A stretch of DNA of 64,000 nucleotides from Octopus vulgaris (lineage: Eukaryota), in the NCBI GenBank assembly GCA_951406725.2, contig OX597814.1, positions 196,230,001 through 196,294,000 on the forward strand. Reading direction: 5' to 3'. Position numbers and translations under genes: made by a program. Below the pieces are notes generated by a model that worked only from the letters and a program-made list of their open reading frames with translations, made no database searches and was not told the DNA's origin. Below are positions 1,823-60,599 of this stretch, piece by piece (the first letter of the stretch is position 1; every line of letters begins with the position of its first letter).

Positions 1823-2712
1823 TAGATTTGAATTTTATGTATATCTATCTATATATCCATCTGTCTATCCGTCTATCCATCTACTTATCTATCTATATAT
1901 TATTCTGTCTGTCTGTCTATATACATATGCATATAAATCTGAATGACATATGTAGGTTGGTGAGAATTTCTGTACGCATGCGTGTACATGACAGACAAAT
2001 ATCTCCTTTGATTTTTGATCACTACTTTAAAGATGCAAAATGAAATTGGCGTGTGAGAGAAAGTCTTGTCGTGAGGCACAAACCGAAGCCTTTTATGATG
2101 CGAAATAATCACCAAAGATGCCGTTTGAAGACTTTCTCTGCATCTTACAAAGGCGGCGTCACTCGTCTCGTTTTTTCCATCTGCCCCGAGCTTGAAATAA
2201 TGAATGTAATATATTTAAATAGAGCTTATGCTCTATCGCTAAAGATACAAGAATACATGTCCTCTTTATGAGTATATAAACTTATACATACATGCAGATG
2301 TGTACATACCTATATGTGTGTCAGTCTATGCATGGCTGCGAGCGCAGCGAAGATTTTTTAGACTTGGAAATAAAAGAAATATCGAAACACAATAATACGT
2401 GAAAATGCATACATGTGTATATATGCATGGACGTGATATATGCATGTATGTGTACATACATACTACATATATACATACATTAATACATGCATACTTATAT
2501 ATGTGTATGTGTGTGTATTGTGTGCGCGTGTGTGTGTATAAATGCAAAAAAAAAACGTACATACATTGACACACGCATATAAATAGATAGAAATATGTGG
2601 GGATATATATGTAGGGAATTAGTAATAATGGTACATCCCTCTCACGTGACGAATGGAATAACCTAGTCACCATAAGTAAAGAGAGGTACGTAATAGGCGG
2701 TCAAAGATAGCT

Positions 2713-3378
2713 AAAATAAAGGAAAGAAAATTAAAGGAAACGGTGTATGGTATTAAGTAACCTACCCGAAGAACATTGAAACAGAGAAGAAAATACTCAA
2801 GTTCAACCAAATAGTAAGAGTAAAGATACCAGCATACATATATGCAGAGGATATGAAGGCGATAGTAATTGGAGAAGAAAGTTATAAAATACTACAAGAA
2901 ATGTGTGGAGATAATATCGACCCATCAGGAATAAGGGTGGAATTCAAAGAATTGCCACCAGTAGTGGATTTAGTAGAAATCGAACCACTAATGAAATGTT
3001 ACTAAAAAATAAATAAGTATGTCAAATCGACAGGAAAAAAGAAAAGAAAAAGAAAAAGGAGGAAAAAAAAAAGAAAAGTGTTTTATGTTATATTTAATAA
3101 TATCAGAAAATAGAAGAACATTTTTAGAGAAAAATATAACGGATCAAATAATTGTAATGGTAGACGATAATTATTTGTTAGTTAAATATATGATAAAAAT
3201 GGACAGTTTAAAAAGATTAATGGTAATGCATGTGATGAGGGGCGCATGCAGCCATTCATAACCCCATTATTGTATAATGATTTCATCATATTCGTTTTAT
3301 GTAGTGTCCCCTCTGTGGTGTCCTGTCTGTCCTTGTTTGTCCCCCTCTATGTTTGGGCCCTTGTGGCTAATAAAGAAA
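2713..3378 (+). mobile_element. Non-LTR retroelement fragment 'A' with short ORF remnant and Tx1-like 3' end
   Basis: Flanked by caaagatagct (2702-2712) and cagagatagct (3379-3389); ORF remnant ~2772-3005 ending ...GDNIDPSGIRVEFKELPPVVDLVEIEPLMKCY*; ends gtggctaataaagaaa. Confidence 0.7.
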
Positions 3379-3393
3379 CAGAGATAGCTGTGT

Positions 3394-4191
3394 CTAGACA
3401 AAATTGACCCACTCGGAGTGTTGGTGAAGTTCGACGAACTGCCACTCGTAGATGAACTCAAAGACGTGGATCCTTACATGAGGTATTAAAATGAAAAAAA
3501 AAGAGTAAGTAAAATTGTTTCGAACAAAAAAAAGAGAGGAAAAAAATGATGATTAAGAAAAAACAATACACAAAAATAGAACGATTGTAATATAGTGTGT
3601 ATAAACGTTCAAATGGTACTGCATAGGAGTCGGGCCCATGCAGCCATTTCATTTTTTCCATTTTTATATAACATTCATTCGCATTCGTTTTATGTTTTAT
3701 GGGATCTTTTCGGTTTGACCGGCAGTTTTTAACATAATTTCTAGGTAGCTGAAAAATTTTAAACTTCGTATACAGATAGAATGTGTTTATAAAACATCTT
3801 TTTCTCTTGGCTTTATTGAGAAAATTCTATAGTTTGTAAGATATTTGGTCTTTAATTTCTTGCATTTCGGCAATTTCAACCAATCAATGACCGTCTATTG
3901 AGGTGAAAACATTATGTGCCGTATGAATATGTCTCTCGTTTAAGAAACAGATTGGGTTTATTTACATTTGTGAAGAAAAAAGATACCCTTCCCCCTAACC
4001 CTAACCCTAAAATAGATTGAAATGCAATAGATCGATACTAGCGTCATAATTATGGGTGACAATTTCATATGACACCGATAGAAAAACTGCCGTTCAAACC
4101 GAAAAATTCCGTTTTATGTCTCCACTGTGATGTTGTGTCTGTCCTTGTAGTGTCCTCCTCTGTGTTAGGCCGGGGTGCCAAATAAAGAAAT
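3394..4191 (+). mobile_element. Non-LTR retroelement fragment 'B' (homologous to A), interrupted by a MITE
   Basis: 15-bp TSD cagagatagctgtgt (3379-3393 and 4192-4206); ORF remnant LDKIDPLGVLVKFDELPLVDELKDVDPYMRY*; ends gtgccaaataaagaaa. Confidence 0.7.
3702..4110. mobile_element. MITE, Merlin-like (GG...CC termini, 8-bp TSD)
   Basis: ~28-bp TIRs ggatcttttcggtttga.cggcagttttt; TSD gttttatg at 3694-3701 and 4111-4118; second copy at 12290-12713. Confidence 0.85.
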
Positions 4192-4299
4192 CAGAGATAG
4201 CTGTGTGTTTACTGGTTTTACTGAGTAGACTGTATACCGAAGTGGGCGTTATAACAATCCAACATATAGTTAGGTGAGTCAAAGGTTCGAATGCGTCTG

Positions 4300-5140
4300 A
4301 GGGAATGTAACAAAAAAGTTGCTGTGAAACAGAGTGGGACTCCTGTATGTAAGCCAAAACGAAATGAAAAGTTGCCCACGGTAAAAGTTAAACATTGTTC
4401 AAAAATAGATATTCCGTGGTCGAGTATACACATCGATTTCGCTGGTCCTTTCAGAAATTTGTTAAGTCGAAACAACCAACCACCTCAACTGTGATAAATT
4501 TTTTACACGAATTGTTTGCAAGATTTGACATCTCAAACATGGTAGTGCTTGACAATGGAACGCAATTTGTGTCTAGCGAATTTAAAATGTTTTGTGAAAT
4601 GTGCGCGAGAGAACCTATAACTACTGTGCCATATCATCTCAGATTTAACAGAAAACAGAACGTTTTGATATCTCCAAAAGAGCCCTTAGAAAATCAAATA
4701 AGGAAGTCACGGATGAGGTACCTCTACAACAATTTTTCAGAGTGTACCGTGTGGTACCAAATCCGAATATACCAGAAGGTAGTTCACCTTGATTAATTGC
4801 TAGCTGGCAAGAAAAGAAAAAAATGTTAGGGAAATATAGTAAGATTTTTTAAAGTCGGTGAAAAGGTGTACATGAGGGCATACAAGAATGGAAAGCAGAG
4901 TTGGGAAGATGGCGTAATTACCAAGTGCATAAGGAAAATGTTGTACTAGGTATAAAGTAGAAATGGCGTATATAAGAGACACACGAAGCAACTGAAAAAG
5001 AAATTTGTGGAAAGCAAAGAGGTGGAATGGTTGTACGATACGATCCAAGTACCAACGCTACAACAGGTGATTGAACCCAGGCGGGGAAAAGAAAACATAC
5101 AGAGTTCGTGAAAATAGATGCCAAGCGCAAACCATATTAA
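4300..5140 (+). pseudogene. Gypsy integrase (rve) remnant, frameshifted
   Basis: PWSSIHIDFAGPF, LHELFARFD..VVLDNGTQFVSSEF..FC, TTVPYH and FKVGEKVY spread over several frames. Confidence 0.9.
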
Positions 5141-5216
5141 ATTATATGTAAAAAAAAAAAACTCAAAAAAGTGAGGTGGGTTGAATGAGAAATAATTATT
5201 ACCTAAATAAAATGAC

Positions 5217-5497
5217 GTGGGGGTGCATTGCCTAGCGGTTAGAGCAGCGGGCTCGTGGTCGAGGGATCGCGGGTTGGAATCTCAGACCGGGAGATGTGTC
5301 TGTTTATGAGCGAAACACCTTAGCTTCACGCGGCGAAGGTAATGGCGAACTTCTGCTGACTCTTTCGCCACAACTTTCTCTCACTCTTTCCTCCTGCATC
5401 TTACAGCTCACCTGCGACGGACCAGCGTCTTGTCCAGGTGGGGAACCTTTGCGCCAAGGAGCCCTATGAACCAGGCGTGGCTCGAGAAGGAACAAAC
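5217..5497 (+). mobile_element. tRNA-derived SINE, family C (L2-like tail)
   Basis: tRNA-like head; TSD aaataaaatgac (5205-5216 and 5498-5509); copies at 29393 and 37880. Confidence 0.88.
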
Positions 5498-5791
5498 AAA
5501 TAAAATGACACCGCCTAAGAAAAAACTTTAAAGAAGAGACGTAGGGAATTAATAATAAGTGTACACTCATCTCACGTGACGAATGGGCTAACTTAGTCAT
5601 TGTAAGTAAGGAGAAGTACGTGAAGTACTAGAGTACGTTGTAGGTGTTCAGAGATAGTTGTGTCTTTATTGGTTTTACTAAGTACATTGTATACTGAAGT
5701 GGACGTTATCACAGTCCAGCATTTTAAGGATATAACAATATACAATAATGTTGGTGGCACCAACCAACAACACACATGCACACCTACTCAC

Positions 5792-6137
5792 AGCGGTGAG
5801 CTGACAGAATTGTTAGCACGCCGGGAGAAATGCTTAGCGGTATTTCGTCTGCCGCTACGTTCTGACTTCAAATTCCGCTGAGGTCGACTTTGCATTTCAT
5901 CCTTTCGGGGTCGATAAATTAAGTATCAGTTACACACTGGGGTCGATGTAATCGACTTAATCCGTTTGTCTGTCCTTGTTTGTCCCCTCTGTGTTTAGCT
6001 CCTTGTGGGCAGTAAAGAAATAGGTATTCCGTCTGCCGTTACGTTCTGAGTTCAAATTCCGACGAGGTCGTCTTTGTCTTTCATCCTTTCGGGGTCGATA
6101 ATTTAAGTACCATTTACGCACTGGGGTCGATATAATG
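5792..6137 (+). mobile_element. SINE family D (Meta-domain-like), head-to-tail dimer
   Basis: tRNA-like head; core gcctttcatcctttcggggtcgataaattaagtaccag; tail ...gtgggcagtaaagaaata followed by a second unit starting ggtattccgtctg. Confidence 0.88.
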
Positions 6138-6569
6138 ATAAAGAAATACACCTACTCATATATGCCCTAGTTTTTTTTTGTTTAACAACCGATAGAATGT
6201 GCACTCAATATATGCATAGTGTATAAACATGCACTACTTTCTGTAAATATAAAATTTATATATAACTAATGCATCTATATATACCTAAGGATATGTAGAT
6301 ATATATATACACATATATAAATGTACACACACACGCGCACACACATACACATACAAACAGTATTACGTTGAGACGTGCTAGCGAAACTATGAGTATATCT
6401 ATGTATATATCTGCAGCGAATCAAATTTCGACAATAAATTTTTGTTTTTACATTTCAGCAATCCGGATTAATGTGTCTTATCTCAGCAATAGGATGTAGA
6501 TAAAGAAGATTTTTAATAACAATGCTGGCACTTCTGGGGCTTAAGAACCTCTAGAAGTTACAACGTTAC

Positions 6570-11920: not shown

Positions 11921-12038
11921 GCTTACGGCCATATCACGTTGAAAGCACCGGTTCTCGTCCGATCACCGAAGTTAAGCAACGTCATGCCTAGTTAGTACTT
12001 AGATGGGAGACCGCTTGGGAAACCGAGGTGCAGTAATC
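11921..12038 (+). rRNA. 5S rRNA-derived sequence, probably a retroposed pseudogene or 5S-SINE
   Basis: 118-nt match to the metazoan 5S pattern (gcttacggccatatcacgttgaaagcaccggttctcgtccgatcaccgaagttaagc...gttagtacttagatgggagaccgc); no oligo-T terminator; 14-bp TSD. Confidence 0.92.
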
Positions 12039-12095
12039 GTCACATATTGTAAAGAAATATATATATATTAGTAAAGAAATATATAATTTACATTT

Positions 12096-24845: not shown

Positions 24846-24999
24846 GTAGCTGTGTGGTAAGTAGATTGCTTACCAACAACATGGTTCCGGGTTCAGTCCC
24901 ACTGCGTGGCGCCTTGGGCAAGTGTCTTCTACTTTAGCCTCGGGCCGACCAAAGCCTTGTGAGTGGATATGGTAGACGGAAACTGAAAGAAGCCCGTCG

Positions 25000-25070
<71 letters not shown>

Positions 25071-29062: not shown

Positions 29063-29392
29063 TCACATCATTTAATATACCAAATATTTAAATGGAGATA
29101 CTATTAACTTCATGCTGTGAAAACACGACGGTCGGACAAGCTTGTATAGCACGCCATATCTTTCCAAAAATCTAAGAGACTCAAATATACGGTATCGTTG
29201 GTCTTTGAAAGAACAAAAACAAAAAAACAAAATGAACAGAAACATGAAAAGAACAGGAAGGATTTGAATGACAAATGCGGAAAGAAACAGAAAGAACAGA
29301 AAATTAAAGGAGGATGCCTTTGGAGTGCATCAGAATTACTATAGTTAATATATATTAATCAACAATTAATATAGTATATGTTGTTTTTGTCG

Positions 29393-29682
29393 TTGTTTGT
29401 TCCTTCTCGAGCCACGCCTGGCTCATAGGGCCGGTTTCCCGGTTTACTTGGCGTATATGTTTCCCCCCTGGACGGGACGCCGGTCCGTCGAATGTGAGCT
29501 GCGAGATGCTGAGGGAAAGAGTGAGAGAAAGTTGTGGCGAAAGAGTCAGCAGAAGTTCGCCAGAGCCGCGCGGAGCTTAGGTGTTTCGCTCATAAACACT
29601 CACATTTCCCGGTCTGAGATTCGAACCCGTGATCCCTCGACCGCGAGTCCGCTGCTCTAACCACTAGGCCAAGTGTCTCCAC
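29393..29682 (-). mobile_element. SINE family C
   Basis: Reverse complement of the 5217/37880 family; flanking direct repeat aatatagtatatg. Confidence 0.88.
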
Positions 29683-30075
29683 AATATAGTATATGATGTA
29701 AATTAATTAAACGGAAAGTCAAAGATTATAAATTAATATATAAATACATATAAAAAATATACTCTCTCTCTCACACACACACACATGCATGCTATCATTC
29801 GAGTGTTGTCTTTAAGAACAAATAATGAGCGAGCTCTTTGCTAGAGACGTTGACATCAATATTTTTATTATAATATTTCATTTATATTTCTAACATTCGT
29901 ATAAGTACAGGATTTCTGTACAAATACAGAATTAGAAACAACATATCAGAATATTACATTGACACCGGTATTTGACTGTTACTTCATTATATCGACTCTT
30001 GAAAAATGTCTGTCTGTCTGTCTATCTGTCTGTACGTCTGTCTACCTGTCTATTAATGCATAGTGGTTGACAATG

Positions 30076-30458
30076 TGGAGGCGCAATGGCCTGGTGGTTA
30101 GGGCAGTGGACTCGCGGTCATAGGATCGCGGTTTCGATTCCTAGACCGGGCGTTGTGAGTGTTTATTGAGCGAAAACACCTAAAGCTTCACGAGGCTCCG
30201 GCAGGGATGGTGGTGATCCCTGCTGTACTCTTTCACCACAACTTTCTCTCACTCTTACTTCCTGTTTCTGTTGTACCTGTACTTCAAAGGGCCGGCCTTG
30301 TCACTCTCTGTGTCACGCTGAATATCCCCGAGAACTACGTTAAGGGTACACGTGTCTGTGGAGTGCTCAGCCACTTACACGTTAATTTCACGAGCAGGCT
30401 GTTCCGTTGATTCGGATCAACCGGAACCCTCATCGTCGTAACTGACGGAGTGCTTCCT
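30076..30458 (+). mobile_element. SINE family B, full length
   Basis: Near-identical to 15531; TSD tagtggttgaca / tagtggctgaca. Confidence 0.92.
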
Positions 30459-30461: not shown

Positions 30462-30769
30462 TAGTGGCTGACATTGACTTCGAAGTTTCGGCCAGCTAAA
30501 CCTAGGCCACGACTTGGAAATCACAGTCAATACTATTATCTTAAAAGAATATTGAATATTTGCAAAGAGTATTGAGTAATCATTCAGTTTAACGTAAAAT
30601 TGTTGTCATGTCGTGTTATAATGAAAACAAATTTACGTTAAACTGAATGACTACTCAATACTCTTTGCAAATATTTAATATTATTTTAAGATAATAGTTT
30701 TGATTGTGACTTCCAAGTCATGGCCTAGGTTTAGTTGGCCGAAACTTCGAAGTCAGTGTCAACCACTAT
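30462..30769. repeat. Fold-back element with ~137-bp arms
   Basis: 30462-30598 aligns to the reverse complement of 30632-30768; carries ggcc..ggcc-GAAAC-ttcgaa-GTC (hammerhead 3' half only). Confidence 0.85.
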
Positions 30770-33921: not shown

Positions 33922-34155
33922 CTATTTCTTTACTACTCACAAGGGGCTAAACACAGAGAGGACAAACAAGGACAGACAGACGGATTAAGTCGATTATATC
34001 GACCCCAGTGCGTAACTGGTACTTAATTTATCGACCCCGAAAGGATGAAAGGCAAAGTCGACCTCGGCGGAATTTGAAGTCAAAACGTAGCGGCAGGAGA
34101 AATACGGCTACGCATTTTGCCCGGCGTGCTAACGATTCTGCCAGATCGCCGCCTT
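33922..34155 (-). mobile_element. SINE family D monomer
   Basis: Full head and tail; 14-bp TSD agagacgatagtat. Confidence 0.9.
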
Positions 34156-34622
34156 AAGAGACGATAGTATTAGCTTGTTCACGCCCATTTCTTTCTTGGT
34201 ATAGCGTTTCAACTAGAAATCGAAACTGTAACTAAATGATCATCAGTCCCGAATGTTATCGCTAGACAGTGGAGTTCTCAAAAGTTTTGTAAACAAGAGG
34301 GTTAGGAGATTAGATTTTGGTCACTTCAATCCGTGAAAGTTATAAACTTCAGAGCATTTACAATAATGTGATAAACTACAGAACAATTAAGGAGAATAGT
34401 TCTCGAGGTCACGTGTCATATACAAATGTTTGTTTAACGAGACGGCTTGAAATTAAATTCAATCATGAATATCGATCCAATTACTCAAGCACATCCATGG
34501 CTGATCAATAACCACAAAAATTAACCAACTTAATGATATGTATATTGAATCAGGAAACTTGAATATTAAATGCTCCAATTATAAAATGTAACAAGGGAAG
34601 TCTTGAATTATTTTTTTATCAA

Positions 34623-35289: not shown

Positions 35290-36520
35290 GGGTTTCATAT
35301 TTTAGCACAAGGCCAGTAATTTCAAGGGAATTAAGTTTCCTATATCGACCCCAGAGCTCAACTGATACTTATTTTATCGAAGCCGAATTTGACCTCAGCA
35401 GAATTTGAACTCAGAACATAAAGACGGACAGAATGCTGCTAAGAATTTTGATTTCCACCTCGCAGCCTTGTTAATGAATATACAGGGTGTTCAAAAAGGC
35501 TCTCCGAAGTAAGTCCTTTATTGCAAAATAAATATTTATAAGCTCGTATAGAATATATTAGACTTTACAAGACTTTAAAAACCTTTATAAGAGGTGTTGA
35601 AAGTGTCGTCCTTCATTTTCAATACGTAAGTTGACTCTTCTGTACATGTTTTGAAACATATCTTGGAGAGTCTGACGCGATATGGACCGTGTGAAGGTTA
35701 TGATTGCGTCTTTTAGCTCATTAATCGTTTTTCGGGCAATTCTTGTACACCGATCCTTTACTTGCACCCCAGAAAAAAATGTCTGGTAGTGTTAAAACCA
35801 AGTGATCTTTGTGGCCAAAGTCTCTTCGAAATAATCCGTTCACTGAAAAATTCACTGCGGCAGACTTTTTGAACACCCTGTATATCGATCTTTAGATGTT
35901 AGTACAAGGCCAGAAAATTTTGGAGAATTGACTTCAGTCGATTATATCGACCTCAGTGATCAAAATCTTTATTTTATCGATCCTGAAAGAATGAAAGGCA
36001 TTTGACGAAATGCCGCTAAGTGTTTTTCCCGGCATGTTAAAGATTCTACTCACTCGCCGCCTTATTGGTGAGAGCATATTCTTTTCTACTCTAGGGACAA
36101 GGCCCGAAAATTTTGAGGAGGAGGCCAGTCGATTCGACCGACTACAGTACGCAACTGATACTTAATTAATCGACCCCAAAAGGATAGAAGACGAAATGTC
36201 ACTAAGTATTTCGCCCGGCGTGCTAACCTTTCTGTCAGCTCACCTTTTTGGTGAGAATATATTACGATAACAAAGTACTAAGATTATTTTAAATTCTCAT
36301 CAAGGAATGAAATCATAGTGTAGTTATATTGGTTTCAAATTTTGACTCAAGGCCAGCAATTATATCAACCCTAGTGTTCAACAGGTACTTATTTTATCGA
36401 CCACGAAAATATGAAATGTAAATTCCACCTTGGTAGAATTTGAACTCAGAACGTGAAGACGAATGAACTGTGGCTAAACATTTTGCCAGCGTGCTAATAA
36501 TTCTGCCAGCTCACTGCCTT
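35290..36520 (-). mobile_element. Four degenerate family D-related SINEs (35290-35470, 35900-36062, 36078-36245, 36330-36520)
   Basis: Repeated acaaggcc...tatatcgacc...acttattttatcgac...gaatttgaactcagaac motifs. Confidence 0.75.
35483..35880 (-). mobile_element. Internally deleted Tc1/mariner-superfamily DNA transposon
   Basis: TIR cagggtgttcaaaaag; TA on both sides; minus strand encodes a transposase C-terminus (WPQRS...FF...VKDR...TINELKDAI...MYRRVNLRIENEGRHFQHLL*). Confidence 0.9.
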
Positions 36521-37879: not shown

Positions 37880-38180
37880 GGGGAGGCACATGGCCTAGTG
37901 GCTAGAGCAGCGGACTCGTGGTCGAGGGATCGCGGGTTCGAATCTCAGACCGGGCGATGTGTGTGTTTATGAGTGAAACACGAAAGCTCCACGCGGCTCT
38001 GGCAGAAGGTAATGGCGAATGTCTGCTGACTCTCTCGCCACAACTTTCTCTCACTCTTTCCTCCTGCATTTTGCAGCTCACCTGCGACGGACCGGCGTCC
38101 CGTCCTGGTGGGGAACCTATACGCCAAGAAAGCTGGGAAACCGGCCCTTATGAGCTAGGCGTGGCTCGAGAAGGAACAAA
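37880..38180 (+). mobile_element. SINE family C
   Basis: Full length; flanking direct repeat aagtaa(a/g)gcaggg. Confidence 0.88.
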
Positions 38181-38189
38181 CAGCAAGTA

Positions 38190-38850
38190 AGGCAGGGATT
38201 TAGCAGAATCGTTGGCAGCCGGGCGAAATGCTTAGCGGCATTTCGTCCGGTCTTTACGTTCTGAGTTTAAATTCTGCCGAGGTCGAGTTTGCCTTTCATC
38301 CTTTCAGGAAAAAATAAGTACCAGCTGAGTTCTAAGGTCCATGTAATCGATCGACTCCCTCCCCTGAAATTGGCCTTGTGCCAAAATTTGAAACCAGTAT
38401 TGGAAAGCTAAGAAAATGTGGCGTGGCAGCAGAATCGGTAGCACGCCGGACAAAATGCTTAGGGGCATTTCGTCAGGTCTTTACGTTATGAGTTCAAATT
38501 CCACCGAGGTTGACTTTACCCTTCATCCTTTCAGTGTCGATAAACTACGCACGAGTGAATCACTTGGGGTTCAATTTAATCGACTATCCCTCTGTCCCCG
38601 AATTTATAGTAGAAAGGCATTTAGAAAGCTAAGTAGTCATTGAATTGACAGGTTCAGTGCAACAACGTTAGATACAGTCTTGCATTATTTTGTTACAAGT
38701 CTTTACTTTCAGAGTTCAAATCCGCCTGAGGTCAATTTTGCATTTCGGTCTCCCAGGACAAATATAATAAATTACCAAACAAATACTGGGATTGATATAA
38801 TCAACAAACTCTCTCCTCCAAATTTCAGTTCATTTCCTAAGTAAGAAATC
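38190..38850 (+). mobile_element. Three family D-related SINEs in tandem, increasingly degenerate
   Basis: gcagaatcg.tagcacgcc..aaatgcttag...gagttcaaattc...tttcatcctttc motifs. Confidence 0.75.
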
Positions 38851-38995: not shown

Positions 38996-39227
38996 CTATT
39001 TCTTTACTACCCACAAGGGGCTAAACACAGAGAGGACAAACAGGTTCAGACAAACGGATTAAGTTGATTGCATCGACCCCAGTGCGTAAATGGTACTTAA
39101 TTTATCGACCCCGAAATGATGAAAGGCAAAGTCGACCTCGGCAGAATTTGAACTCAGAACGTAACGGCAGACGAAATACCGCTAAGTATCTCGCCCGACG
39201 TGCTAACGTTTCTGCCAGCTCGCCCCC
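38996..39227 (-). mobile_element. SINE family D monomer
   Basis: 15-bp TSD tttgtggttgaagcc. Confidence 0.9.
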
Positions 39228-40142
39228 TTTTTGTGGTTGAAGCCGTCCACAGCAGTTCCCTACTAAAACTTACACAAATTACTACAGAAGGATTTACTAA
39301 CGACATTAATACTTTCGGTACAAAATACTTTTTGGAAATATTCTTTTCCTATTTATCGCTCTCGTTGTTACTAGCAACCCTGACCAATAGGAAAATGTTT
39401 TCTCGAATACTCTACTTTCTGCCAGAAAGTGACTCGCACAGACCAATACACAAATGCATTCAGATGCACACCAACAGAGAAAATAGCAACACACGCACAC
39501 ATACATTCGCACGCACAAAAAGCACATATACACACATATAGACCTACACTCATATACACACACTCACATACAGAAATACTACAAAGCAGTTGTGCTAATT
39601 AGCCGCAATTCGGAATGGTTATCGTCTCTTGTCATGCTGTCCTCATCAACATAATAGTTTCTTTGCAAATCCATCGTGACTTTTGCAACTTAAAAATAAA
39701 CAAGAAATATAAAAAACAAAAAGACAAGCAAAAATGCATAACAAAAAATAAACAAAAAAAACACCAAACAAAAATAGAGGAATGTATGTTAGTTCGATTT
39801 CTCTAACAATGATGAAACGTTAAGCCATAACAGTGTATAGCTTCAGGCTAAATAAATATCAACATGAATAGGTCGAACAGAAGAGACAGAAACGTCTGGT
39901 ACAATAAGAATGTGCGCGCAGCATGTTTTCCTAACCTTTTACTAACCACACACAAGTCTATTATGCTTTTTCTTCGATTGCAGTTGTATTAAATTTGTTC
40001 TTTTTTATATTTTATTTATTTTCAGTGCAGTTTAATGTGTTAAATTCGAAACGTTTGTGTAACAAGTTTTTTTTTTTCATCTTTCAAAGACTATATTTTT
40101 GTGTTTTATAAATAGACTTTTATTTTTTTGTCGAAATCTCTC

Positions 40143-42054: not shown

Positions 42055-42838
42055 ATATATATTTTTTAATTTGAAACAAAATTACTTCTCTACGAAACGC
42101 TTAGAGCCATAAAACAGACAGTAGACTAAATTCTAGGTTAATATTAATTGTTTGGGGAATTTTTCAGATGTTGATATAGTTAAGGGCTGATTGCTATGAC
42201 GTAAGGTTGTTAAAAAAGAGGTTGTATACTGTCAACACAACGTGACAGTCCCGTAAAGGGAATCACACCACCGCTATTTAGTCCTAGGAAGCATCGACGC
42301 TTCCTATCAGCTTTGACACATTTCCTGCATCCTTATATTTGCAAAGTGGAGGCAAGCACCCCCACCAGCTAGGATTCACACCTGAAAACATGTTTCTGGG
42401 TCTTGCCCGTCATCAGTCCAGAGTAGTAACTCCTGCTAGCTGAAATGGCTGCGACCACTTTGCAAATATATAATATTTTCAGCGAAAAATATTCCCAGAA
42501 ACATGTCTTCGGATGCTAATCCTAGCTGGCGGGGGTGCTTGCCTCCCCTTTGCAAATATAAGGATGCAGGAAATGTGTCAAGGCTGACAGGAAGCGTCGA
42601 TGCTTCCTAGGACTAAATAGCGGTGGTGTGATTCCCTTTACGGGACTGTCACGTTGTGTTGACAGTATACAACCTCTTTTTTAACAACCTTACGTCATAG
42701 CAATCAGCCCTTACCTATATCAACATCTGAAAAATTCCCCAAACAATTAATATTAACCTAGAATTTAGTCTACTGTCTGTTCTATGGCTGTAAGCGTTTC
42801 GTAGAGAAGTAATTTTGTTTCAAATTAAAAAATATATA
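42055..42838. mobile_element. Large fold-back element (~345-bp arms, ~95-bp spacer) with hammerhead motif
   Basis: 42055-42399 aligns to the reverse complement of 42494-42838; minus strand 42422-42381: tctgga-CTGATGA-cgggcaagaccca-GAAAC-at-GTT-ttcagg. Confidence 0.85.
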
Positions 42839-44018
42839 TAGAGAGATTAATATCAAGTTTTTTTGTATTTGAAGAAATACGAATATAATCTCAAGAGACT
42901 TTAACTTTTAGAAAATGGTTTAAAGTGAATGTTTCTGGTATCAGCTTGAGCAGAAATTGTAGAAAACTTTATGGTCAATGAGTTAATTATCTCTGGTATA
43001 GCTCCAAGGAAATTTCTCTTATCTCGTAACAAGGACTCACTGCCTTTGAAAACTAGTTTGGTATAGTTAGTACAGAGTAATATTTACCAATAGCTGTAGT
43101 AAAGCAATCTTGTGCAAATGACTGATTAATAGAACTTTCTGGACAGTTTGATAACAATGGTTTTAGATGTCTTCTTACTTCTTATTTGTATAATCCCATC
43201 TCAAGATTAAGATAATAAATCTTCCTTTAAAAAGAATAAAGAAAGAATTTTAATTTCGTCAGACGTTTTCTAAATTTACGATTATTGAATTATAATTCAC
43301 TTTGGAATATTTGTTTTCTTTTCCGTAAACACGTTCTGAACTAATGGTTGTGCATCAACTTCCGGTATCTCGAAACACGCGATATATAAATAAATTTCCA
43401 GTTGCTTTCGAAAACTATTAGTTCTTTAAACAGATGTATATCGCTGCCTGTTTCAGTCAGAATCACACTTTCCTTTACCGAGTTAACGTTGTAGACAAAT
43501 ATCAATAAATACATCGTAATGTACGTCAAACCCGCTACGAAAGTAAATGATTGTTAAACAATTTCATACATCAACTGCGATCTTTATTTGCAAGCAAAAT
43601 ACGGCAAAGTTAATTAATTTAGAACCGATATATCTTTCGAGTTATCTGCACCTTATAACTGCCTCGAGATACCATTGAAGTATACGGTCACAGATATAGA
43701 GATTAATGGCTATTTGCCGTGTATGAACAGTCATGTTCAAACGTATTATGTATATCTATGCGGAATTCAAAAAATCTGTGTCTGTGTACATTTAAATGAA
43801 AATAAGGTTATGTGTACGAGAATAAACGTGGATGGATTTTTAAACCCACATATTATCTAATTAGGTAACGTGAATATGTTGTGGATGACAGGTCAAAGAT
43901 GCGATGCGTACAGCAATGTGTTCCCTGCGTCAGTGTATGAGCGAAACTGAATAACAGTACATATATATATATATATACATACATACATGTATGTATTTAT
44001 ATATATACACACATATGC

Positions 44019-45176: not shown

Positions 45177-46074
45177 AAGGCAGAAACGTTAGCACGCAGG
45201 GAGAAATGCTTAGCGGTGTTTCGTCTGATTTTACATTCTGAGTTCAAATTCCACCAAGGTTGACTTTGCCTTTCACCCTTTTGGGGTCGACAAACTAAGT
45301 ACCAGTTGCGTACTGGGGTCGATATAATCGTCTTAATCCGTTTGTCTGTCCTTGTTTGTCCCCTCTATGTTCAGCCCCTTGTGGGTAGTAAAGAAATAGG
45401 TATTTCGTCTGTCGTTACGTTTTGAGTTCAAATTACACCGAGGTCGACTTAGCCTTTCATCCTTTAGGGGTCGATAAATTAAGTACCAGTTGCGTACTGG
45501 GCTCGATCTAATCGACAGACTCCCTCCCTCAAAATTAATGGCATTGTTACTAGAGTAGAAAAGAATATTTAAGTCGGCGAGCTGGCAGAAACCTTAGCAC
45601 GCCGGGCGAAATGCTTTGTGGTATTTCGTCCGCCGTTACGTTCTGAGTTCAGATTCCGCCGAGGTCAACTTTGCCGTTCATACTTTCGGGTTCGACAAAT
45701 TAAGTACGAGTTACGCACTGGGGTTGATGTAACAGACTTAATCCGTTTGTCTGTCCTTGTTTGTCCCCTCTGTGTGTAGCCCCTTGTGGGTAGTAAAGAA
45801 ATAGGTATTTCGTCTGCCGCTACGTTCTGAGTTCAAATTCCGCCGAGGTCGACTTTGCCTTTCATCCTTTCGCGGTCGATTAAGTAAGCACCAGTTACGC
45901 ACTGGGGTCGATATAATCGACTTAATCCGTTTGTTTGTCCTTGTTTGTCCTCTCTGTGTGTAGCCCCTTGTGGGTAGTAAAGAATAGGTATTACGTCTGC
46001 CGTTTAGTTCTGAGTTGAGATTCCACCGAGGTAGACTTTCAACCTTTCGGGGGTCGATAAATTAAGTACTAGTT
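45177..46074 (+). mobile_element. Array of family D SINE units (dimer 45177-45568, trimer 45574-46074)
   Basis: Each tail gtagtaaaga(a)ata is followed by ggtatt(t/a)cgtctg. Confidence 0.9.
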
Positions 46075-46075
46075 G

Positions 46076-46477
46076 CTCTTTTACTTCTTTCAGTCATTTG
46101 ACTGCGGCCATGCTGGAGCACCACCTTAGTCGGGCAAATCGATCCCAGGATTTATTCTTTGTAAGCCTAGTACCTATTCTACCGGTTTCTTTTTGCCAAA
46201 CCGCTAAGTTACGGGGACGTGAACACACGAGCATCGGTTGTCAAGGGATGCTGGTGGGACACAGACACAAACAAACACACACAGATACACACATACACAC
46301 ACACACACACACATATATATATACATATATACGACAGGCTTCTTTCAGTTTCTGTCTACCAAATCCACTCACAAGGCTTTGGTCAGCCCAAGGCTATAGT
46401 CGAAGACACTTGCCCAAGGTGCCACGCAGTGGGACTGAACCTGAAACAATGTGGTTGTTAAGCAAGCAACTTACCAC
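46076..46477 (-). mobile_element. SINE family A
   Basis: Reverse-complement copy. Confidence 0.88.
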
Positions 46478-47640: not shown

Positions 47641-47900
47641 AAGTAATTAAGGGTTTAGCAACGATTTGCCTCACCACACACCGAATTTAGAAATAGCAGT
47701 CAAAGAGTTATGGCTATTCTTTCTACTTAAAAGGGAGATCTCAGTAAAACCACAGCACTTAAAAGGCAAACAACGCAGGCAAAAGAGAAAGAAATGACGA
47801 CAATCAGACTTAATATAGAAAGAATAGCCATAACTCTTTGACTGCTATTTCTAAATTCAGTGTGTGGTGAGGCAAATCGTTGCTAAACCCTTAATTACTT
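47641..47900. repeat. Inverted repeat, 80-bp arms with 100-bp spacer, within a (TA)n-flanked element
   Basis: 47641-47720 is the reverse complement of 47821-47900, with about 1 mismatch. Confidence 0.88.
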
Positions 47901-48255: not shown

Positions 48256-49381
48256 TATAAAAATATATACCTTAGTGTTTTGTCGTTTATATATTTTTGC
48301 TTTATACAGAAAGACGATAAATAGCGTGTCATATGTTGACACTATGAGCCAATAATGTCTAAAATATAAGCGGAAAAATAGTCTAAAATGCAGGAAGAAT
48401 AACAATATCAGCAGCAACGATAACAGAAGCTCTAACAGGAACAACAATAGCGACAACAACAAGGGTAACATTAAGCAGTAATAATAGAATCATTGCTAAC
48501 AACAGGAAAACACTAGCAAGAACAAAATATCAATTAGAAATACTCACGATTAATAATATCAATAGAAGAGACAAGAAGTAAAGAATAACATTGCAGTCGA
48601 ACGAATAAAATCGTATAGAAACATGAAAAATAATGAAACAATTAATGGCGATATCAGTATGTTTTCTGGTTTTCTGGTTTTCGCTTTTTTTTTTGCTTTT
48701 CTTTTTAACCTCAATAAGAATAACAACGCAAATCGGAGCCAGAGTGATCGTCAATGTAAGCAGGACGGTTTCACTATTATGAAACAATAATACAGATAAA
48801 CGTCTCTGAAAAGACACTGAATAAAGGTATAGTGGGTTAATGGAAAACTTTAAATAATGTTTAGATGTTGCTTGCTACGTTTTTATTTATTCAGTAACTT
48901 AACGATGTGCGTTCACCTTAAACAATAAACAACGTAAGTGCGAGCTCTGGTTATGAAGATAACACATGATTCCCGATGTGATAGTATATAGTATAAATGT
49001 GATAAACTCTAATAGCAAATTGGAAAAAAAAAAATAAAGGATATTTATTATAACTGTATAGCACCTTTGTTACAATATTTCTCTTGAAATACAAAGGCTT
49101 TGTATCAATTAATTTTCAATATCATGAAGAATATGTTAAAATAATGTTGTTATTAAGCTGGTGTTTAGAGCGAAAATTAACATGAACTTATGATTGAAGT
49201 TTTTAATTTAGATTATTTTAAAACTTCTATCATAAAACCACAGGCAGCCAAAACAGAGTGGCATCAAAAATGTTAATATTTCTACGTTAGAAAGATCTCA
49301 ATATTACAATAGAAAGGTGGGATTAAGATTGTGTGACACCACTGGCTTTAAAAAACAGTCATTATATAAAATCAAATAAAA

Positions 49382-49707
49382 GGAACACTCCGTCGGTTAC
49401 GACGACGAGGGTCCCAGCTGATACGATCAACTGAACAGCCTGCTCGGGAAATTAACGTGCTAGTGACTGAGTAATCCACAGAAACGCGTACCCGGAACGT
49501 AGTTCTCAGGGAGATTAAGCATGACACAGAGTGTGACAAGGCCGGTCCTTTGAAATACAGGTACAACTCATTTTTGCCAGCTGAGTGGACTGGAGCAACG
49601 TGAAATAAAGTGTCTTGCTCAAGGACAAAGCGCGTCGCCGGGAATGGAACTCACGACCTTACAATTGTAAGCCGAATGCCCTAACCACTAAGCCACGCGC
49701 CTTCCAC
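49382..49707 (-). mobile_element. SINE combining a CORE-type head/core with the family B 3' half
   Basis: 49565-49707 matches the 23148 family; 49382-49565 matches the family B 3' half. Confidence 0.85.
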
Positions 49708-50035
49708 ATCAAATCAAATAATGAGAGGGAAACTCCCGTCTTTCAGTTCGAGCCACACTGTGAGGTTAACTATCAACCTGTGGAATACACTGCCTTCAGT
49801 TGTTTCCAGATGGTTGTTGTTTCACCCCAGGTCATATCTCATCCATTAGACATAGTCTCAAGGCGATCTAGTCGAGAGATTTATCTTAAAATTTCCCTAC
49901 AATCTGGGCCAGCGTTCCATGAACACGATTTGCTAAGTCTCTATCTTTCATTGCATAAGACAGAACTGACTGAAATACATATTAAGCGCTATTAATTGCC
50001 AGCCTGACAAACACATATACACTCACACGTATATG

Positions 50036-50430
50036 CTCTTTACTGTTTTACTCTTTTACTTGTTTTAGCCATTTGACTGCGGCCATGCTGGAGCACCGCC
50101 TTTAGTCGAGCAAATCGACTCCAGGACTTATTCTTTGTAAACCTAGTACTTATTCTATCGGTGTCTTTTGCCGAACCGCTAAGTTACAGGAACGTAAACA
50201 CACCAGCATCGGTTGTCAAACGATGTTGTGGGGAACAAACACACACACATATATACATATACGTATATACGAGGGGCTTCTTTCAGTTTCCGTCTACCAA
50301 ATTCACTCACAAGGCTTTGGTCGGCCCGAGGCTATATTAAAATACACCTGCTCAAGGTGCCACGCAGTAGGACTGAACCCGGAACCACGTAGCTGTTAAG
50401 CAAGCTACTTACCACACAGCCACTCCTGCG
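50036..50430 (-). mobile_element. SINE family A
   Basis: Full-length reverse copy. Confidence 0.9.
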
Positions 50431-50561
50431 CTATCACACACATTCTACATAATCCGCTAAGTTATATGTAGGTAAAGAAACCATCACTGGTTATCAAGCG
50501 GTGGTAGACGAAAACTACGCTACAGCCATACACATACGTATGTATAAAGGTGTGGACATGG

Positions 50562-50600
<39 letters not shown>

Positions 50601-50653
50601 CATCCATCAATCTATCTATCTATCTATCTTTCTATCTATCTATCTATCTATCT

Positions 50654-52537
50654 GCCCATCACTCTGCTTAATGGAGACTTGAAAATTTTGGCCAAGGTGC
50701 TAGCCAAGAGGTTGGCGCTTGTCATCGAGAATCTGGTCGACAGGGCGCAAACATGCGCCGTGCCGGGCCAGACCATCCATGACAACCTCCACCTGATGCG
50801 CTACATCATAGACAGGGTAGTTAACGAACCTGGCATGGGTGGGGCGCTGATCAATTTGGATCAATCGAAAGCTTTCGATAGGGTAGACCATCGATACTTG
50901 GAGGCGGTCCTCAGAGCGGCAGGCTTCGGTCCCGTCTTCCGCGGCTGGATAGCCGCTTTGTACAGAGGCATCCGTTCGGTAATTCGCGTGAATGGACATC
51001 TATCGAGACCCTTCGACATCGCACGTTCGGTCCGTCAGGGATGCCCCCTCTCGTCGCTTCTATACGTATTGACTCTCGAGCCATTATTGCGGAAGCTGGC
51101 AACTTTGAGGGGCATCCCGCGAGAACTGGGATGCGGGACGAGCGTGTCTGCATACGCGGACGACGTCACCGTCATAGTGTCTAGCCACGAGCACATCGAG
51201 CAGGTCGGCGAGACACTGAAAAACTACGAAGCGGTGACAGGAGCGAAAATCAACCGGGAAAAGTCAGTGGGCTTGCGACTAGGCACCTGGAGAAGCAAGC
51301 CCATGCCGTCCACCAGCGCCTCCGTCGTGGGACGCTGGACCGACGGCCCGGTTGAGTTGCTCGGGGTCTGGTTTGGTTCGGACCTCCAAGTGGAGAAGAA
51401 CTGGAACGAGATAACGAGTAGGGTGGTTACTCTCGCCCGGCAATGGGCCGAGAGGAAACTGTCCCTAAAAGGTCGGGCGGAGGTGGCGAACACGTACATC
51501 GCGTCCGTCATCTACTACCGCCTGACCGTCGTACCTTGTCCCGACCCTACCATCACCAAACTACAACGCATTCTCTTTCGCTTCTTGTGGAAAGGATGCG
51601 TCCCGATGGTCAGGCGATCCATTTGCTGTCAACACCCGCTAAAAGGAGGGCTGGGCATGCCGTGGTTGATGATGCGCAGACACGCGCTGAGACTGCGACA
51701 TCTCTGGCTCTATGTAGACGACGGTGAACAGGTGTGGTCGCCGTTTGTGAGGTACGCTTTCCCGCAGCTCGTCTCCATGACCGAACTGCAGTCGTGGATC
51801 AAAAAGAGGCCGAGGAAGGGCGATTGGCACCGCGAGTGTCGCGTTGCGCTCAAGCAACTCTGCCGTCCCGGGTCGACCTTGAGTGACTTCAACACAACCA
51901 AAGCATTCTATAGGGGATTAGTGGAGGGGAGGTACGACGACGAGCTCGGGGCGAACCTGGACGTCGACGAGGAGTACCTGACCCGCCTGTTCAGGACGAC
52001 TTTCGGGCCAGGGCCCATGGACAACTTCCAGAGATCCCTGGCCTGGCAGTGCTACCGAGAAGCGCTACCCGTTCGGGATAAGCTCTACAGACACGGCTCG
52101 AGAAACACGGGGCCGACCTGCCCGAGATGCGGTCAGAGCGACGAAACCGTTCTGCACGCACCCGTGCAGTGTCCAACAATTTCCGACCTGTGGGCTTATG
52201 TCGAACAACTGCTGTCACGTGTGGGACGAGTCGGTTTATCAGCTGAGTCTATCGTCAATATTGTCACGCCTCCTTCCTTCAAACGGGAAGGAAGAGCTAT
52301 TTTCATCATCCTTGTGGCTATGGCGAAAGAATGTATCTGGTGGACGCGTCTGAAGGGATTGGAGACAAACAATTTCCTCTCTGGTCAATCTCTCATCAAC
52401 TTCTTCAAGTACCACTTGAAAAGGAAAGTGAAAGTAGAGAGGCAAGTTTTGTCTAGCGAATGTTTTAAAAAAGATGGATGAATGTAGCAAGGATGGCACG
52501 TATGAATGACGAAGCCACCTTGAGCATAATCCTATGA
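50654..52537 (+). CDS. L1/Tx1-clade ORF2, 5'-truncated: reverse transcriptase plus C-terminal CCHC zinc finger
   Basis: PITLLNGDLKILAKVLA.RL, LDQSKAFDRVDH, VRQGCPLS.LLY, AYADD, KGGLG, CPRC...ETVLH...C; open to 52481, and a single-A frameshift gives the likely native end (KRWMN...LSIIL*) at 52537. The listed ORF's N-terminus is only (TATC)n. Confidence 0.95.
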
Positions 52538-53003
52538 ACCCAGAAATTGAAAACAGAGGGTTACCCACTTGCAAACAAATGTGGTAACATATAACAATAT
52601 TGACCAAGGTTACCGTGGTCTTTTTCGTAGGCTTTTCTTCCCACGGATAAACCTTACTTGCTTTCCCCTTTACACTATATATCATAACACTGTGATACAC
52701 GATCCCTATTGATCGTCCTTTTTTTTCCTCTTCCCCTTTTTTCCCCCTTTTTTCTTCTTTTTTCATTTCTCTTTCCTTTTGTTCCTTTTCCTTTTCTTTT
52801 TTTTCTTTTTATTCTATTTATTTTATTCAATTTTTTTTTGTTTTTGTTCTTTTCTTCCCTTTTACGATCCCTCTTGATCGAAAACCTACGCCACCCCCTT
52901 TTTTTTTTCTTTTGTTTTTTGTTCTCTTCATCCCCCAAAAGAAAAGCTCTACCTTGTAACTTGTCCCATCTGTGTGCAGCCCTGTGTGGCCAATAAAGAA
53001 ACT
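50654..53003 (+). mobile_element. Tx1-like LINE inserted in (TATC)n
   Basis: GC-rich ORF, T-rich 3' UTR, ends gtggccaataaagaaact; (TATC)n at 50563-50653 and 53004-53090. Confidence 0.9.
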
Positions 53004-53010
53004 TATCTAT

Positions 53011-53092
<82 letters not shown>

Positions 53093-53286
53093 CCCTCCCT
53101 CCCTACTGACCTACCTACCTATCTACCTACCTACATATCTACCTACATACCTATCTACCAACCTATCTATCTATCTATCTATCTCCCTGTCTCCCTCTCT
53201 CCCTACCGACCTACCTACCTATCTACCTACCTACCGACCTATCTACCTACCTACCTATCTATCTACCTACCTATCTACCTACCTAC

Positions 53287-53356
<70 letters not shown>

Positions 53357-53617
53357 GTCTCCCATTTTTCTTCTTTTTTCATTTCTCTTTTCTTTTGTTC
53401 CTTTTCTTTTTCTTCTTTTTTTATTTATTTTATTTTTTATTTTTTTTATTCTATTATTTTTGTTCTTCTTTTTCCCTTTTACGATCCCTTTAGATCGAAA
53501 ACCTACGCCACCACTTTTTTTTGTTTCCTTTTTTTTTTTTTTTCATCCTCCAAAAGAAAAGCTCTGCCTTGTAACTTGTCCCATCTGTGTGCAGCCCTGT
53601 GTGGCCAATAAAGAAAC

Positions 53618-53618: not shown

Positions 53619-53683
<65 letters not shown>

Positions 53684-53692
53684 GTCTATCTA

Positions 53693-53728
<36 letters not shown>

Positions 53729-60228: not shown

Positions 60229-60599
60229 TCGGGCGAAATGCTTAGTGGTATTTCGTCTGTCTTTACGTACTGAGTTCAAATTCCACCGTGGTCGACTTTA
60301 CCTTCATCCTTTCGGGGTCGATTAAATACGTACCAGTTACGCACTGGGGTCGATATAATCGACTTAATCCGTTTGTCTGTCCTTGTTTGTCCCTTCTGTG
60401 TTTATCCCCTTGTGGGTAGTAAAGAAATAGGTATTTCGTCTGTCTTTACGTTCTGAGTTCAAGTTTCGCCGAGGTCGACTTTGCCTTTAATCCTTTCGGG
60501 ATCGATAAATTAAGCACCACTTGCGTAATGGGGTCGATCTAATCGACTGGTCCCCTCCCCCCAAAATTTCGGGCCTTGTGCCTAGAGTAGAAAAGAATA
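60229..60599 (+). mobile_element. SINE family D dimer
   Basis: Unit 1 with gtaaagaaata tail; unit 2 with gtgcctagagtagaaaagaat tail; flanking direct repeat aataatattttcgt. Confidence 0.9.

What the first reader, a model, noticed from the sequence alone, without database searches (positions are those of the whole stretch)
52950..53003. One non-poly(A) 3' terminus links a Tx1-like LINE to three kinds of passenger
Seen: LINE end ccttgtaacttgtcccatctgtgtgcagccctgtgtggccaataaagaaa (52952-53001 and 53567-53616). SINE D end ccttgtttgtcccctctgtgtttagccccttgtgggtagtaaagaaa (near 6019, 33925, 38998, 45395, 45801, 60426). Elements A and B end ccttgtttgtccccctctatgtttgggcccttgtggctaataaagaaa (3378) and ccttgtagtgtcctcctctgtgttaggccggggtgccaaataaagaaa (4190). 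The 5S copy shares only the last ~11 nt, gtaaagaaata. None has poly(A), and SINE D monomers, element B and the 5S copy have 14-15 bp TSDs. Established: mammalian L1 recognises poly(A), whereas stringent tail sharing is typical of L2/CR1/RTE pairs. Inference: a stringent Tx1-clade enzyme mobilises a guild of tRNA-SINE, short-ORF and 5S RNAs via this ~50-nt signal. I cannot confirm that this is undescribed.
Basis: partly seen in the sequence, partly recalled or inferred. Interest (0 to 1): 0.8.

Follow-up and report, generated by a model that had tools for sequence, protein, structure and literature searches.

The report
Octopus retrotransposons share one tail hairpin
An octopus jumping gene of the Tx1/L1 group, two half-elements that encode only its RNA-binding protein and a short repeat all end in the same 50-letter tail without poly(A), which suggests that these elements are copied by recognising a small RNA hairpin, unlike human L1.

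Summary
The shared tail is real. A 5'-truncated L1-group (Tx1-like) LINE, elements A and B and SINE D share about 50 terminal bases (0 of 2000 shuffles reach the scores). None of 8 termini has poly(A). A 3-bp hairpin lies 14 nt from each end, with compensatory changes at two pairs, but folding energy is no better than shuffles. Corrections: (1) A and B are not short-ORF RNAs but 5'-truncated elements carrying the C-terminus of a CCHC ORF1p found in Octopus, with no ORF2 before the tail (HAL1-like). (2) SINE D is closer to A (86-87% over 55-56 nt) than to this LINE (74-80% over 50). Both LINE ends sit in a (TATC)n array, whereas D, A, B and 5S sit elsewhere, so the driver is probably a sister Tx1 family. 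(3) Five of seven D tails are internal to dimers. (4) The single 5S copy lacks the hairpin and carries 13 bases of D's end: a template-switch chimera, not a tail-bearing passenger. (5) 12-15 bp TSDs also flank unrelated SINEs. Stringent tail sharing is known for L2/CR1/RTE and three plant or algal L1 pairs; my searches found no animal Tx1 case. Repbase and Dfam could not be searched.

The parts
50649..52537 (+). 5'-truncated ORF2 of an L1-group (Tx1-like) LINE: RT and zf-RVT; one frameshift near the C-terminus
   Evidence: Pfam RVT_1 E=4e-27, zf-RVT E=7e-7; 71% identity to P0143 over 50649-52472; PDB best match human L1 ORF2p 96 bits vs R2 54 bits or less; full-length relatives about 1150 aa with endonuclease+RT+zf-RVT
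52538..53001 (+). LINE 3' UTR (T-rich); only the last ~50 nt (52952-53001) are shared with A, B and D
   Evidence: best local alignment of the A UTR to the LINE UTR covers only the terminal 51 columns
53355..53616 (+). second, shorter copy of the same LINE 3' UTR
   Evidence: 234 matches, 30 mismatches to copy 1; flanked by TATC arrays
50562..50653 (+). (TATC)n array at the LINE 5' junction; further arrays at 53004-53360 and 53619-53728 follow both 3' ends: likely target
2713..3378 (+). Element A: 5'-truncated ORF1-only (HAL1-like) element; ORF1p C-terminus 2721-3005, A-rich UTR, shared tail; TSD 11 bp with 1 mismatch (2702-2712 / 3379-3389)
   Evidence: related copies in Logan contigs end at 3378 (records 6, 21, 29)
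3394..4190 (+). Element B: diverged relative of A (last ~31 codons of ORF1, UTR, tail), in tandem with A at the same LTR site; 15-bp TSD 3379-3393 / 4192-4206
   Evidence: (217 matches, 80 mismatches to A; tblastn 45% to P0121)
3702..4105 (.). DNA transposon-like insertion inside B (terminal inverted repeats, 8-bp target duplication); second copy at 12295-12713
   Evidence: 85% identity; joint 3693-4111 with 8 letters fitting both sides
2610..5722 (+). Old LTR retrotransposon hosting A and B in its 5' LTR (about 2610-4265; 3' LTR about 5541-5722; integrase remnant 4392-4793)
   Evidence: Pfam rve E=1.5e-6, below its curated cut-off; contigs joining across A+B in 4 of 4 runs (table 5)
33922..34156 (-). 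SINE D monomer with terminal tail, 14-bp TSD
38997..39229 (-). SINE D monomer with terminal tail, 15-bp TSD
5793..6147 (+). SINE D dimer: internal tail at 6020, second unit shortened and ending in a short D-type end; 11-bp TSD
45179..46076 (+). SINE array D+E, then D+D+partial unit; D tails at 45396, 45801 and 45985 are internal
60230..60597 (+). D+E heterodimer inserted as one unit (14-bp TSD); D tail at 60427 is internal; E tail has a related hairpin and a different end
11921..12082 (+). 5S rRNA retrocopy plus a 43-nt linker holding the D-type terminal 11-mer twice; 14-bp TSD 11905-11918 / 12082-12095

Best explanation
A radiation of octopus Tx1-group LINEs recognises its RNA by a conserved ~50-nt 3' tail: a pyrimidine-rich stretch, a 3-4 bp hairpin with a 5-6 nt G/U-rich loop, and a purine-rich end where reverse transcription starts, without poly(A). 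The copy at 50.6-53.6 kb belongs to a family that inserts in (TATC)n. Sister families with variant tails and other or looser targets are inferred to have given rise, by loss of ORF2, to ORF1-only elements (A, B), and to have donated the tail to, and mobilise, SINE D (perhaps also SINE E/E2, which keep the hairpin). The 5S copy arose when the enzyme started on a D-type 3' end, slipped once and switched template to 5S rRNA. Shown: sequence sharing, hairpin pairing pattern, ORF identity, TSDs, insertion sites. Inferred: protein-RNA recognition, the sister families as drivers, loss of ORF2 in full-length A/B, the template switch.
For: Tail similarity far above shuffles, also without the A-rich end. 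Conservation is confined to the last ~50 nt while the UTRs upstream are unrelated. A 3-bp core lies 14 nt from the end in LINE, A, B and D; pair 2 is C-G in LINE/A/D and G-C in B/E/E2; pair 3 is C-G in D and G-C in the others. On a 12-row alignment 84.8% of cells pair (3 of 500 shuffles) and covariation is 0.364 (4 of 500), above all six slid controls. The A ORF is 68-71% identical to the C-terminus of CCHC proteins of Octopus bimaculoides; P0121 aligns with the RRM-plus-knuckle ORF1 part of a fish ORF1-ORF2 gene model from the LINE's own homolog set (P0266, pairwise E=3e-5). In A and B the ORF1 stop is followed by UTR and tail, no RT. D is 86-87% like A, 74-80% like the LINE. A and B lie in tandem at one LTR site with a TSD between them, as described for Tx1-mobilised SINEU-3 and for LTR-targeting crocodilian Tx1 (PMC4494074). 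O. vulgaris holds 80 L1-Tx1 families, 13 recently active (PMC13282606).
Against: Folding energies of 6 of 6 tails are no better than shuffles (z -0.34 to +0.80); the stem is only 3-4 bp, 7 of 12 rows are not independent of SINE D or its relatives, and the number of pairs with double changes (2) is not above shuffles (281 of 500). One D copy and two E copies break the stem. No sister LINE with a D/A-type tail was seen: no genome is held and collection scans gave no octopus DNA. No tree with named Tx1 references could be built. A profile comparison of the ORF1 region lost significance once the zinc knuckle was removed (probability 0.14%). Only 5'-truncated A and B were seen.
Confidence: 0.6

Rival explanations
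1. One reading: this very LINE family supplies the one enzyme that mobilises SINE D, A, B and 5S RNA through the same 50-nt signal.
For: It is the only RT-bearing element in the window with the tail; similarity is significant; TSDs of D, B and 5S are alike, 14-15 bp.
Against: 2 of 2 LINE 3' ends and the 5' junction lie in (TATC)n, 0 of 7 passenger insertions with a TSD (A, B, D5793, D33925, D38999, D+E 60230, 5S) do; D is closer to A than to the LINE; the 5S copy lacks the hairpin and is not significantly like the LINE tail.
Confidence: 0.12
2. Tail capture: the tail belongs to another LINE clade or to an abundant SINE, and this Tx1 family and A/B acquired it by template switching or by an insertion in their 3' UTR; Tx1 recognition need not be stringent.
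For: The LINE tail is the most divergent of the group; octopus has many RTE, CR1 and Dong-R4 families (PMC13282606); tail exchange by template switching is proposed for SINE superfamilies (PMC4824008 passages); unrelated SINEs have similar TSD lengths.
Against: The tail is exactly terminal in LINE, A and B, three diverged lineages that all carry L1-group proteins; LINE, A and B share AATAAA where D has a variant, so D is not the obvious donor; the two LINE copies differ at 1 of the last 70 nt but at 11% of the UTR.
Confidence: 0.15
3. The tail is kept as a 3'-end formation and priming signal (AATAAA plus A-rich end), not as an ORF2p-binding hairpin; recognition is relaxed and any RNA ending in the short A-rich motif can be copied.
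For: Weak folding; the 5S chimera and the shortened unit ending at 6146 carry only the terminal 9-13 nt; LINE, A and B have AATAAA.
Against: Similarity persists without the last 10 nt; D keeps the upstream 40 nt without AATAAA; two compensatory pair changes.
Confidence: 0.13

Closest known systems
Stringent LINE/SINE pairs (UnaL2/UnaSINE, ZfL2, CR1, RTE; PMC4176376 and PMC3747384, passages)
   Same: Shared 3' tail with a small stem-loop, no need for poly(A)
   Different: Here the LINE is L1-group (Tx1-like), not L2/CR1/RTE; no tandem microsatellite end; the hairpin is weak and untested
Stringent L1-clade pairs of plants and algae: LINE1-1_ZM with ZmSINE2/3, L1-1_CR with SINEX-3_CR (PMC3472496, passages)
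   Same: L1-group LINE sharing a ~45-80 nt structured end with a SINE; compensatory changes in a variable stem
   Different: Animal host; Tx1-like, microsatellite-associated LINE; no poly(A). That survey found only three L1-tail SINEs among 58 pairs, the ones named being plant or algal
Crocodilian Tx1-Mar and SINEU (PMC4494074, parts 2-4 of 5 read)
   Same: Tx1 families mobilising short elements; tandem insertions around a TSD; Tx1 families targeting microsatellites or LTR elements; template-switch chimeras with small RNAs
   Different: SINEU end in poly(A) and no LINE sharing the SINEU-1 3' terminus was found; the link there is target preference, here a shared tail
HAL1, HeT-A, Ag-Sponge: ORF1-only non-autonomous LINEs (PMC5786205 and PMC5753468, passages)
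   Same: ORF1p followed directly by UTR and LINE 3' end, no RT
   Different: Those derive from L1, Jockey and CR1; A/B have a CCHC ORF1p with an extra ~85-aa C-terminal domain seen only in Octopus among 6 named hits, and a Tx1-like tail
Small-RNA/L1 chimeric retrocopies (U6-L1 type; as discussed in PMC4494074)
   Same: Small RNA 5' part, short retroelement 3' end, TSD
   Different: 5S rRNA, with only 13 nt of a SINE D-type end, partly repeated

Membership tests
L1 group (L1/Tx1) non-LTR retrotransposon | RT closest to L1 ORF2p; endonuclease-RT-C-terminal Zn domain in one ORF2 | tested here: met
   PDB: L1 ORF2p 96 bits over residues 2-350, R2 54 or less; RVT_1 + zf-RVT; relatives of about 1150 aa mostly with PF03372+PF00078+PF13966. 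The endonuclease itself is truncated away in this copy
Tx1 clade | RT phylogeny grouping with named Tx1 elements | not testable with these tools
   No named Tx1 reference among the hits; Repbase not available
Tx1 clade | ORF1 of RRM plus CCHC type in relatives | tested here: met
   6 gene models among the RT homologs carry an ORF1-type region with CCHC knuckles; this ORF1 type is tied to Tx1 in PMC5203782 (passages). The window copy's own ORF1 is missing
Tx1 clade | Insertion into a specific repeat target | tested here: inconclusive
   2 of 2 3' ends and the 5' junction in (TATC)n, but all in one neighbourhood
Stringent LINE/SINE pair | Shared 3'-terminal sequence above chance | tested here: met
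Stringent LINE/SINE pair | Conserved stem-loop with compensatory changes | tested here: inconclusive
   For. Against: folding z-scores about 0; few independent families
Stringent LINE/SINE pair | Tail required for mobilisation | not testable with these tools
   needs a retrotransposition assay
ORF1-only non-autonomous LINE (HAL1-like), elements A/B | ORF1p homolog followed by UTR and LINE end, no ORF2 | tested here: met
   holds for the 3' parts seen in 2 of 2 elements
ORF1-only non-autonomous LINE (HAL1-like), elements A/B | Dispersed family with defined 3' end and TSDs | tested here: met
   TSDs; other copies end at 3378 and LTR copies without A+B exist
ORF1-only non-autonomous LINE (HAL1-like), elements A/B | Full-length 5' end derived from an identified autonomous LINE | not testable with these tools
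   no genome; no contig spans the element
tRNA-derived SINE (SINE D) | tRNA-like head with Pol III A and B boxes | tested here: inconclusive
   A-box-like motif in 2 of 3 copies by regex, strict B box in 0 of 3; a B-box-like stretch is visible by eye; ARAGORN and Rfam find no tRNA
MetaSINE (SINE D) | 66-bp Meta domain after the head | tested here: inconclusive
   D body motifs absent from the paper's supplement and, by eye, unlike the BivaMeta-SINE1 rows shown; the Meta consensus is in a figure that is not held
5S-derived SINE (SINE3) | Multicopy family with 5S head, body and LINE tail | tested here: inconclusive
   one copy in the window, no body, no hairpin; other loci could not be searched

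The most novel reading that the evidence does not exclude
Octopus Tx1 LINEs are stringent, poly(A)-independent L1-group elements whose conserved 3' hairpin is used by an abundant SINE lineage (D, perhaps E/E2) and by a diverse family of ORF1-only Tx1 derivatives with an octopus-specific C-terminal domain: an animal L1-group LINE/SINE tail pair, and a test case for the idea that stringent recognition is ancestral in the L1 group.
Probability: 0.45. Interest if true: 0.65.

Novelty: new variant of a known kind. Interest (0 to 1): 0.45.

Why it matters
Ohshima's survey found only three SINEs with L1-type tails among 58 pairs and proposed that relaxed poly(A) recognition evolved from a stringent ancestor (PMC3472496). 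An animal Tx1-group example without poly(A) would extend this to metazoans and give a 50-nt signal that can be tested directly. It would also name the likely driver of a common octopus SINE (SINEs are 11.6% of the O. vulgaris genome, mostly unclassified among recent families; PMC13282606). It also suggests that several Octopus 'CCHC-type' gene models are ORF1-only retroelements. The principle itself (shared LINE/SINE tails, half-LINEs, template-switch chimeras) is established.

Tried and rejected
No whole genome is held, so the genome-wide clustering could not be run. Scans for LINE relatives in metagenome, genome and viral contigs gave none. Tail-pattern scans gave 0, 0, 6, 3 and 0 loci; the 9 loci are chance matches with no similarity beyond 28 nt. 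No RNA holder was listed for 2600-6200. The one read-laying run (4 of 24 listed runs, stretch 2560-4300) was dominated by the DNA transposon in B, so loose ends at A and B were not shown; depth rises about 100-fold at the A tail but the tool says depth is no copy number. The idea that A/B carry an ORF2 C-terminus was rejected: no match among 120 RT homologs (best E 0.43). AlphaFold of the 82-aa A peptide failed (pLDDT 44); in P0121 residues ~300-380 model well but match only generic small alpha/beta folds (best Z 5.5, rmsd 3.3, 77 aligned; Foldseek no E below 0.001). ESM Atlas neighbours of P0121 are CCHC and ZCCHC3-like clusters at 0.87-0.90, a lead only. My first guess that D is a MetaSINE found no support; a recalled likeness of its body to Deu/Nin-type domains could not be tested. 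'TX1' in PMC4176376 is a mutant name, not the clade. SINE C's A-rich end is unrelated to the tail. Earlier scan findings: none.

Full report
Setting. The window is microsatellite- and SINE-rich animal DNA (36% GC). The closest named relatives of its element proteins come from Octopus bimaculoides, O. sinensis and Argonauta hians, so I infer an octopus genome. No whole genome is held, so everything below rests on the window, protein searches and one read-laying run.

The observation. The 50-nt LINE end occurs at 52952-53001 and 53567-53616 and matches A (3378), B (4190) and SINE D at 6020, 33925(-), 38999(-), 45396, 45801, 45985 and 60427. Against dinucleotide shuffles the LINE tail scores 48-60 with A, B and three D copies (null about 20; 0 of 2000 each), and stays significant without the last 10 nt (0-9 of 1000). 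Among 12,788 window 60-mers these 11 loci rank first, with a gap from 48 to 33. The longest A run at 8 of 8 termini is 3. TSDs of 14, 15, 15 and 14 bp flank D33925, D38999, B and the 5S copy; 0 of 400 random pairs reach 14. However, 5 of 7 D tails are internal: each is followed directly by a headless second SINE unit, and the composites at 5793-6147 and 60230-60597 have their own TSDs, so they moved as dimers. SINEs F and G, whose tails are unrelated, also have exact TSDs of 11-13 bp, so TSD length does not identify the enzyme.

The LINE. 50649-52537 is a 5'-truncated ORF2 with RVT_1 and zf-RVT, 71% identical to P0143 and with one frameshift near its end. Its best solved relative is human L1 ORF2p (96 bits; R2 54 or less). 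Full-length relatives are about 1150 aa with endonuclease, RT and zf-RVT, and 6 gene models among them carry CCHC-type ORF1 regions, the ORF1 type linked to Tx1 in PMC5203782 (passages). No named Tx1 reference was available, so Tx1 is a well-supported but untreed assignment. Both 3' ends and the 5' junction lie in (TATC)n arrays. Microsatellite-targeting Tx1 families are known (PMC4494074). The two copies differ at 30 of 264 aligned UTR positions but at 1 of the last 70.

Elements A and B. The A peptide found 9 proteins among 1.84 billion; the best are 71% and 68% identical C-termini of 386- and 297-aa proteins. Seven of the nine carry a species name, six O. bimaculoides and one O. sinensis, and five have a CCHC knuckle. 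P0121 aligns over 137 residues with the ORF1 part of P0266, a fish ORF1-ORF2 model from the LINE's homolog set (E=3e-5); a small profile comparison was significant only with the knuckle included. B carries the last 31 codons of the same ORF. In both, the stop is followed by an A-rich UTR and the tail, with no RT. They are therefore best read as 5'-truncated ORF1-only elements, like HAL1, HeT-A and Ag-Sponge (PMC5786205). They sit in tandem, a TSD between them, within 1 nt of the same site of an old LTR. Contigs that join across A+B occur in 4 of 4 runs laid, and three long contigs follow A from 3208 to exactly 3378. This recalls tandem SINEU-3 insertions and LTR-targeting Tx1 families in crocodilians. 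P0123 joins a C-terminal domain to a second ORF1, which fits such tandems elsewhere (inference).

Who is closest to whom. D matches A at 86-87% over 55-56 nt, the LINE at 74-80% over 50, and A matches the LINE at 75%. The UTRs of A and the LINE share nothing upstream of the tail. With the different insertion sites, this points to a sister family, not this one, as the partner of D and parent of A/B. O. vulgaris has 80 L1-Tx1 families, 13 recently active (PMC13282606, part 1 of 3 and supplement search).

Structure. A 3-bp stem closes a 5-6 nt loop 14 nt from the end in LINE, A, B and D, and 18 nt from the analysed end in SINEs E and E2, which share D's head and body but end differently. The loop-closing pair is C-G; pair 2 is C-G in LINE, A, D and G-C in B, E, E2; pair 3 is C-G in D and G-C elsewhere. 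On a 12-row alignment 84.8% of cells pair (3 of 500 shuffles), covariation 0.364 (4 of 500), better than all six slid registers, but the count of doubly changed pairs is not above shuffles (281 of 500) and rows are related. Folding energies of 6 of 6 tails are ordinary. The hairpin is plausible, not shown.

The 5S copy. A full 5S (11921-12039, 93.6 bits) is followed by 43 nt holding an 11-mer twice that otherwise occurs only at D-type ends (6 other places); the linker shares 13 nt with D, 8 with the LINE. Its end is not significantly like the LINE tail (371 of 2000) and has no hairpin. I read it as a chimera: reverse transcription began on a D-type end, restarted, and switched to 5S rRNA, as for small-RNA/L1 chimeras. 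It supports the same machinery but not use of the 50-nt signal by 5S RNA.

Mechanism. Most likely (0.6): Tx1-group ORF2p binds a conserved 3' tail and primes at its purine-rich end without poly(A); different families pair this with different targets; ORF1-only derivatives and SINE D keep the tail to be copied in trans. Rivals: this exact family drives all (0.12); tail capture from another clade (0.15); the tail is only an end-formation and priming signal (0.13).

Comparison and novelty. Stringent pairs are standard for L2, CR1 and RTE (PMC4176376, PMC3747384, passages). In the L1 clade only three tail-sharing SINEs were found among 58, those named being from maize and Chlamydomonas (PMC3472496, passages). 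Tx1-mobilised SINEU end in poly(A) and share no 3' terminus with a LINE (PMC4494074, parts 2-4). Nine paper searches showed no animal Tx1 tail pair and no ORF1-only Tx1 element; Repbase, Dfam, figures and the 1994 octopus SINE paper could not be seen, and SINE D is so common that it is probably catalogued. Verdict: a real, new variant of a known kind; interest 0.45.

Noticed in passing
window 36080-36252(-), 38188-38600(+), 36345-36520(-), 45400-45565(+), 60430-60597(+): SINEs E and E2 share D's head and body but end differently; their tails keep the hairpin loop with a different stem. E and E2 monomers have 12-17 bp TSD-like repeats.
   Followed up: partly
window 6021, 45397, 45802, 45986, 60428: All five internal D tails are joined to the same internal position of the next SINE unit, in both D+D and D+E composites: either one ancestral dimer or repeated insertion at one site in the SINE head.
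   Followed up: partly
window 135-520, 620-1035, 7225-7617, 13484-13890, 16280-16690, 24845-25272, 46076-46477, 50047-50434: SINE family C (~400 bp, internal microsatellite, short repeated A-rich end); no convincing TSD in 5 copies tested, so probably a different LINE partner.
   Followed up: partly
window 5216-5499, 29390-29688, 37882-38182; 15530-15913, 30075-30456, 12953-13186, 49381-49724, 23147-23654: SINE families F and G with tRNA-like heads and mosaic bodies and tails; G copies at 15530 and 30075 are 96% identical.
   Followed up: no
window 3702-4105 and 12295-12713: High-copy ~410-bp DNA transposon-like element with terminal inverted repeats and an 8-bp target duplication; it dominates read depth.
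   Followed up: partly
window 1162-1478, 7005-7105, 27106-27355, 30462-30768, 42055-42839, 47653-47888: Several near-perfect inverted repeats or palindromes (89-99% identity) of 70-780 bp.
   Followed up: no
P0121 residues 296-386 (homolog of window 2721-3005): The ORF1p C-terminal domain has named relatives only in Octopus, models confidently and resembles only generic small alpha/beta folds.
   Followed up: partly
P0147: A protein 63% identical to the LINE ORF2 is labelled as a bacterial MAG protein, probably host DNA in a metagenome bin.
   Followed up: no
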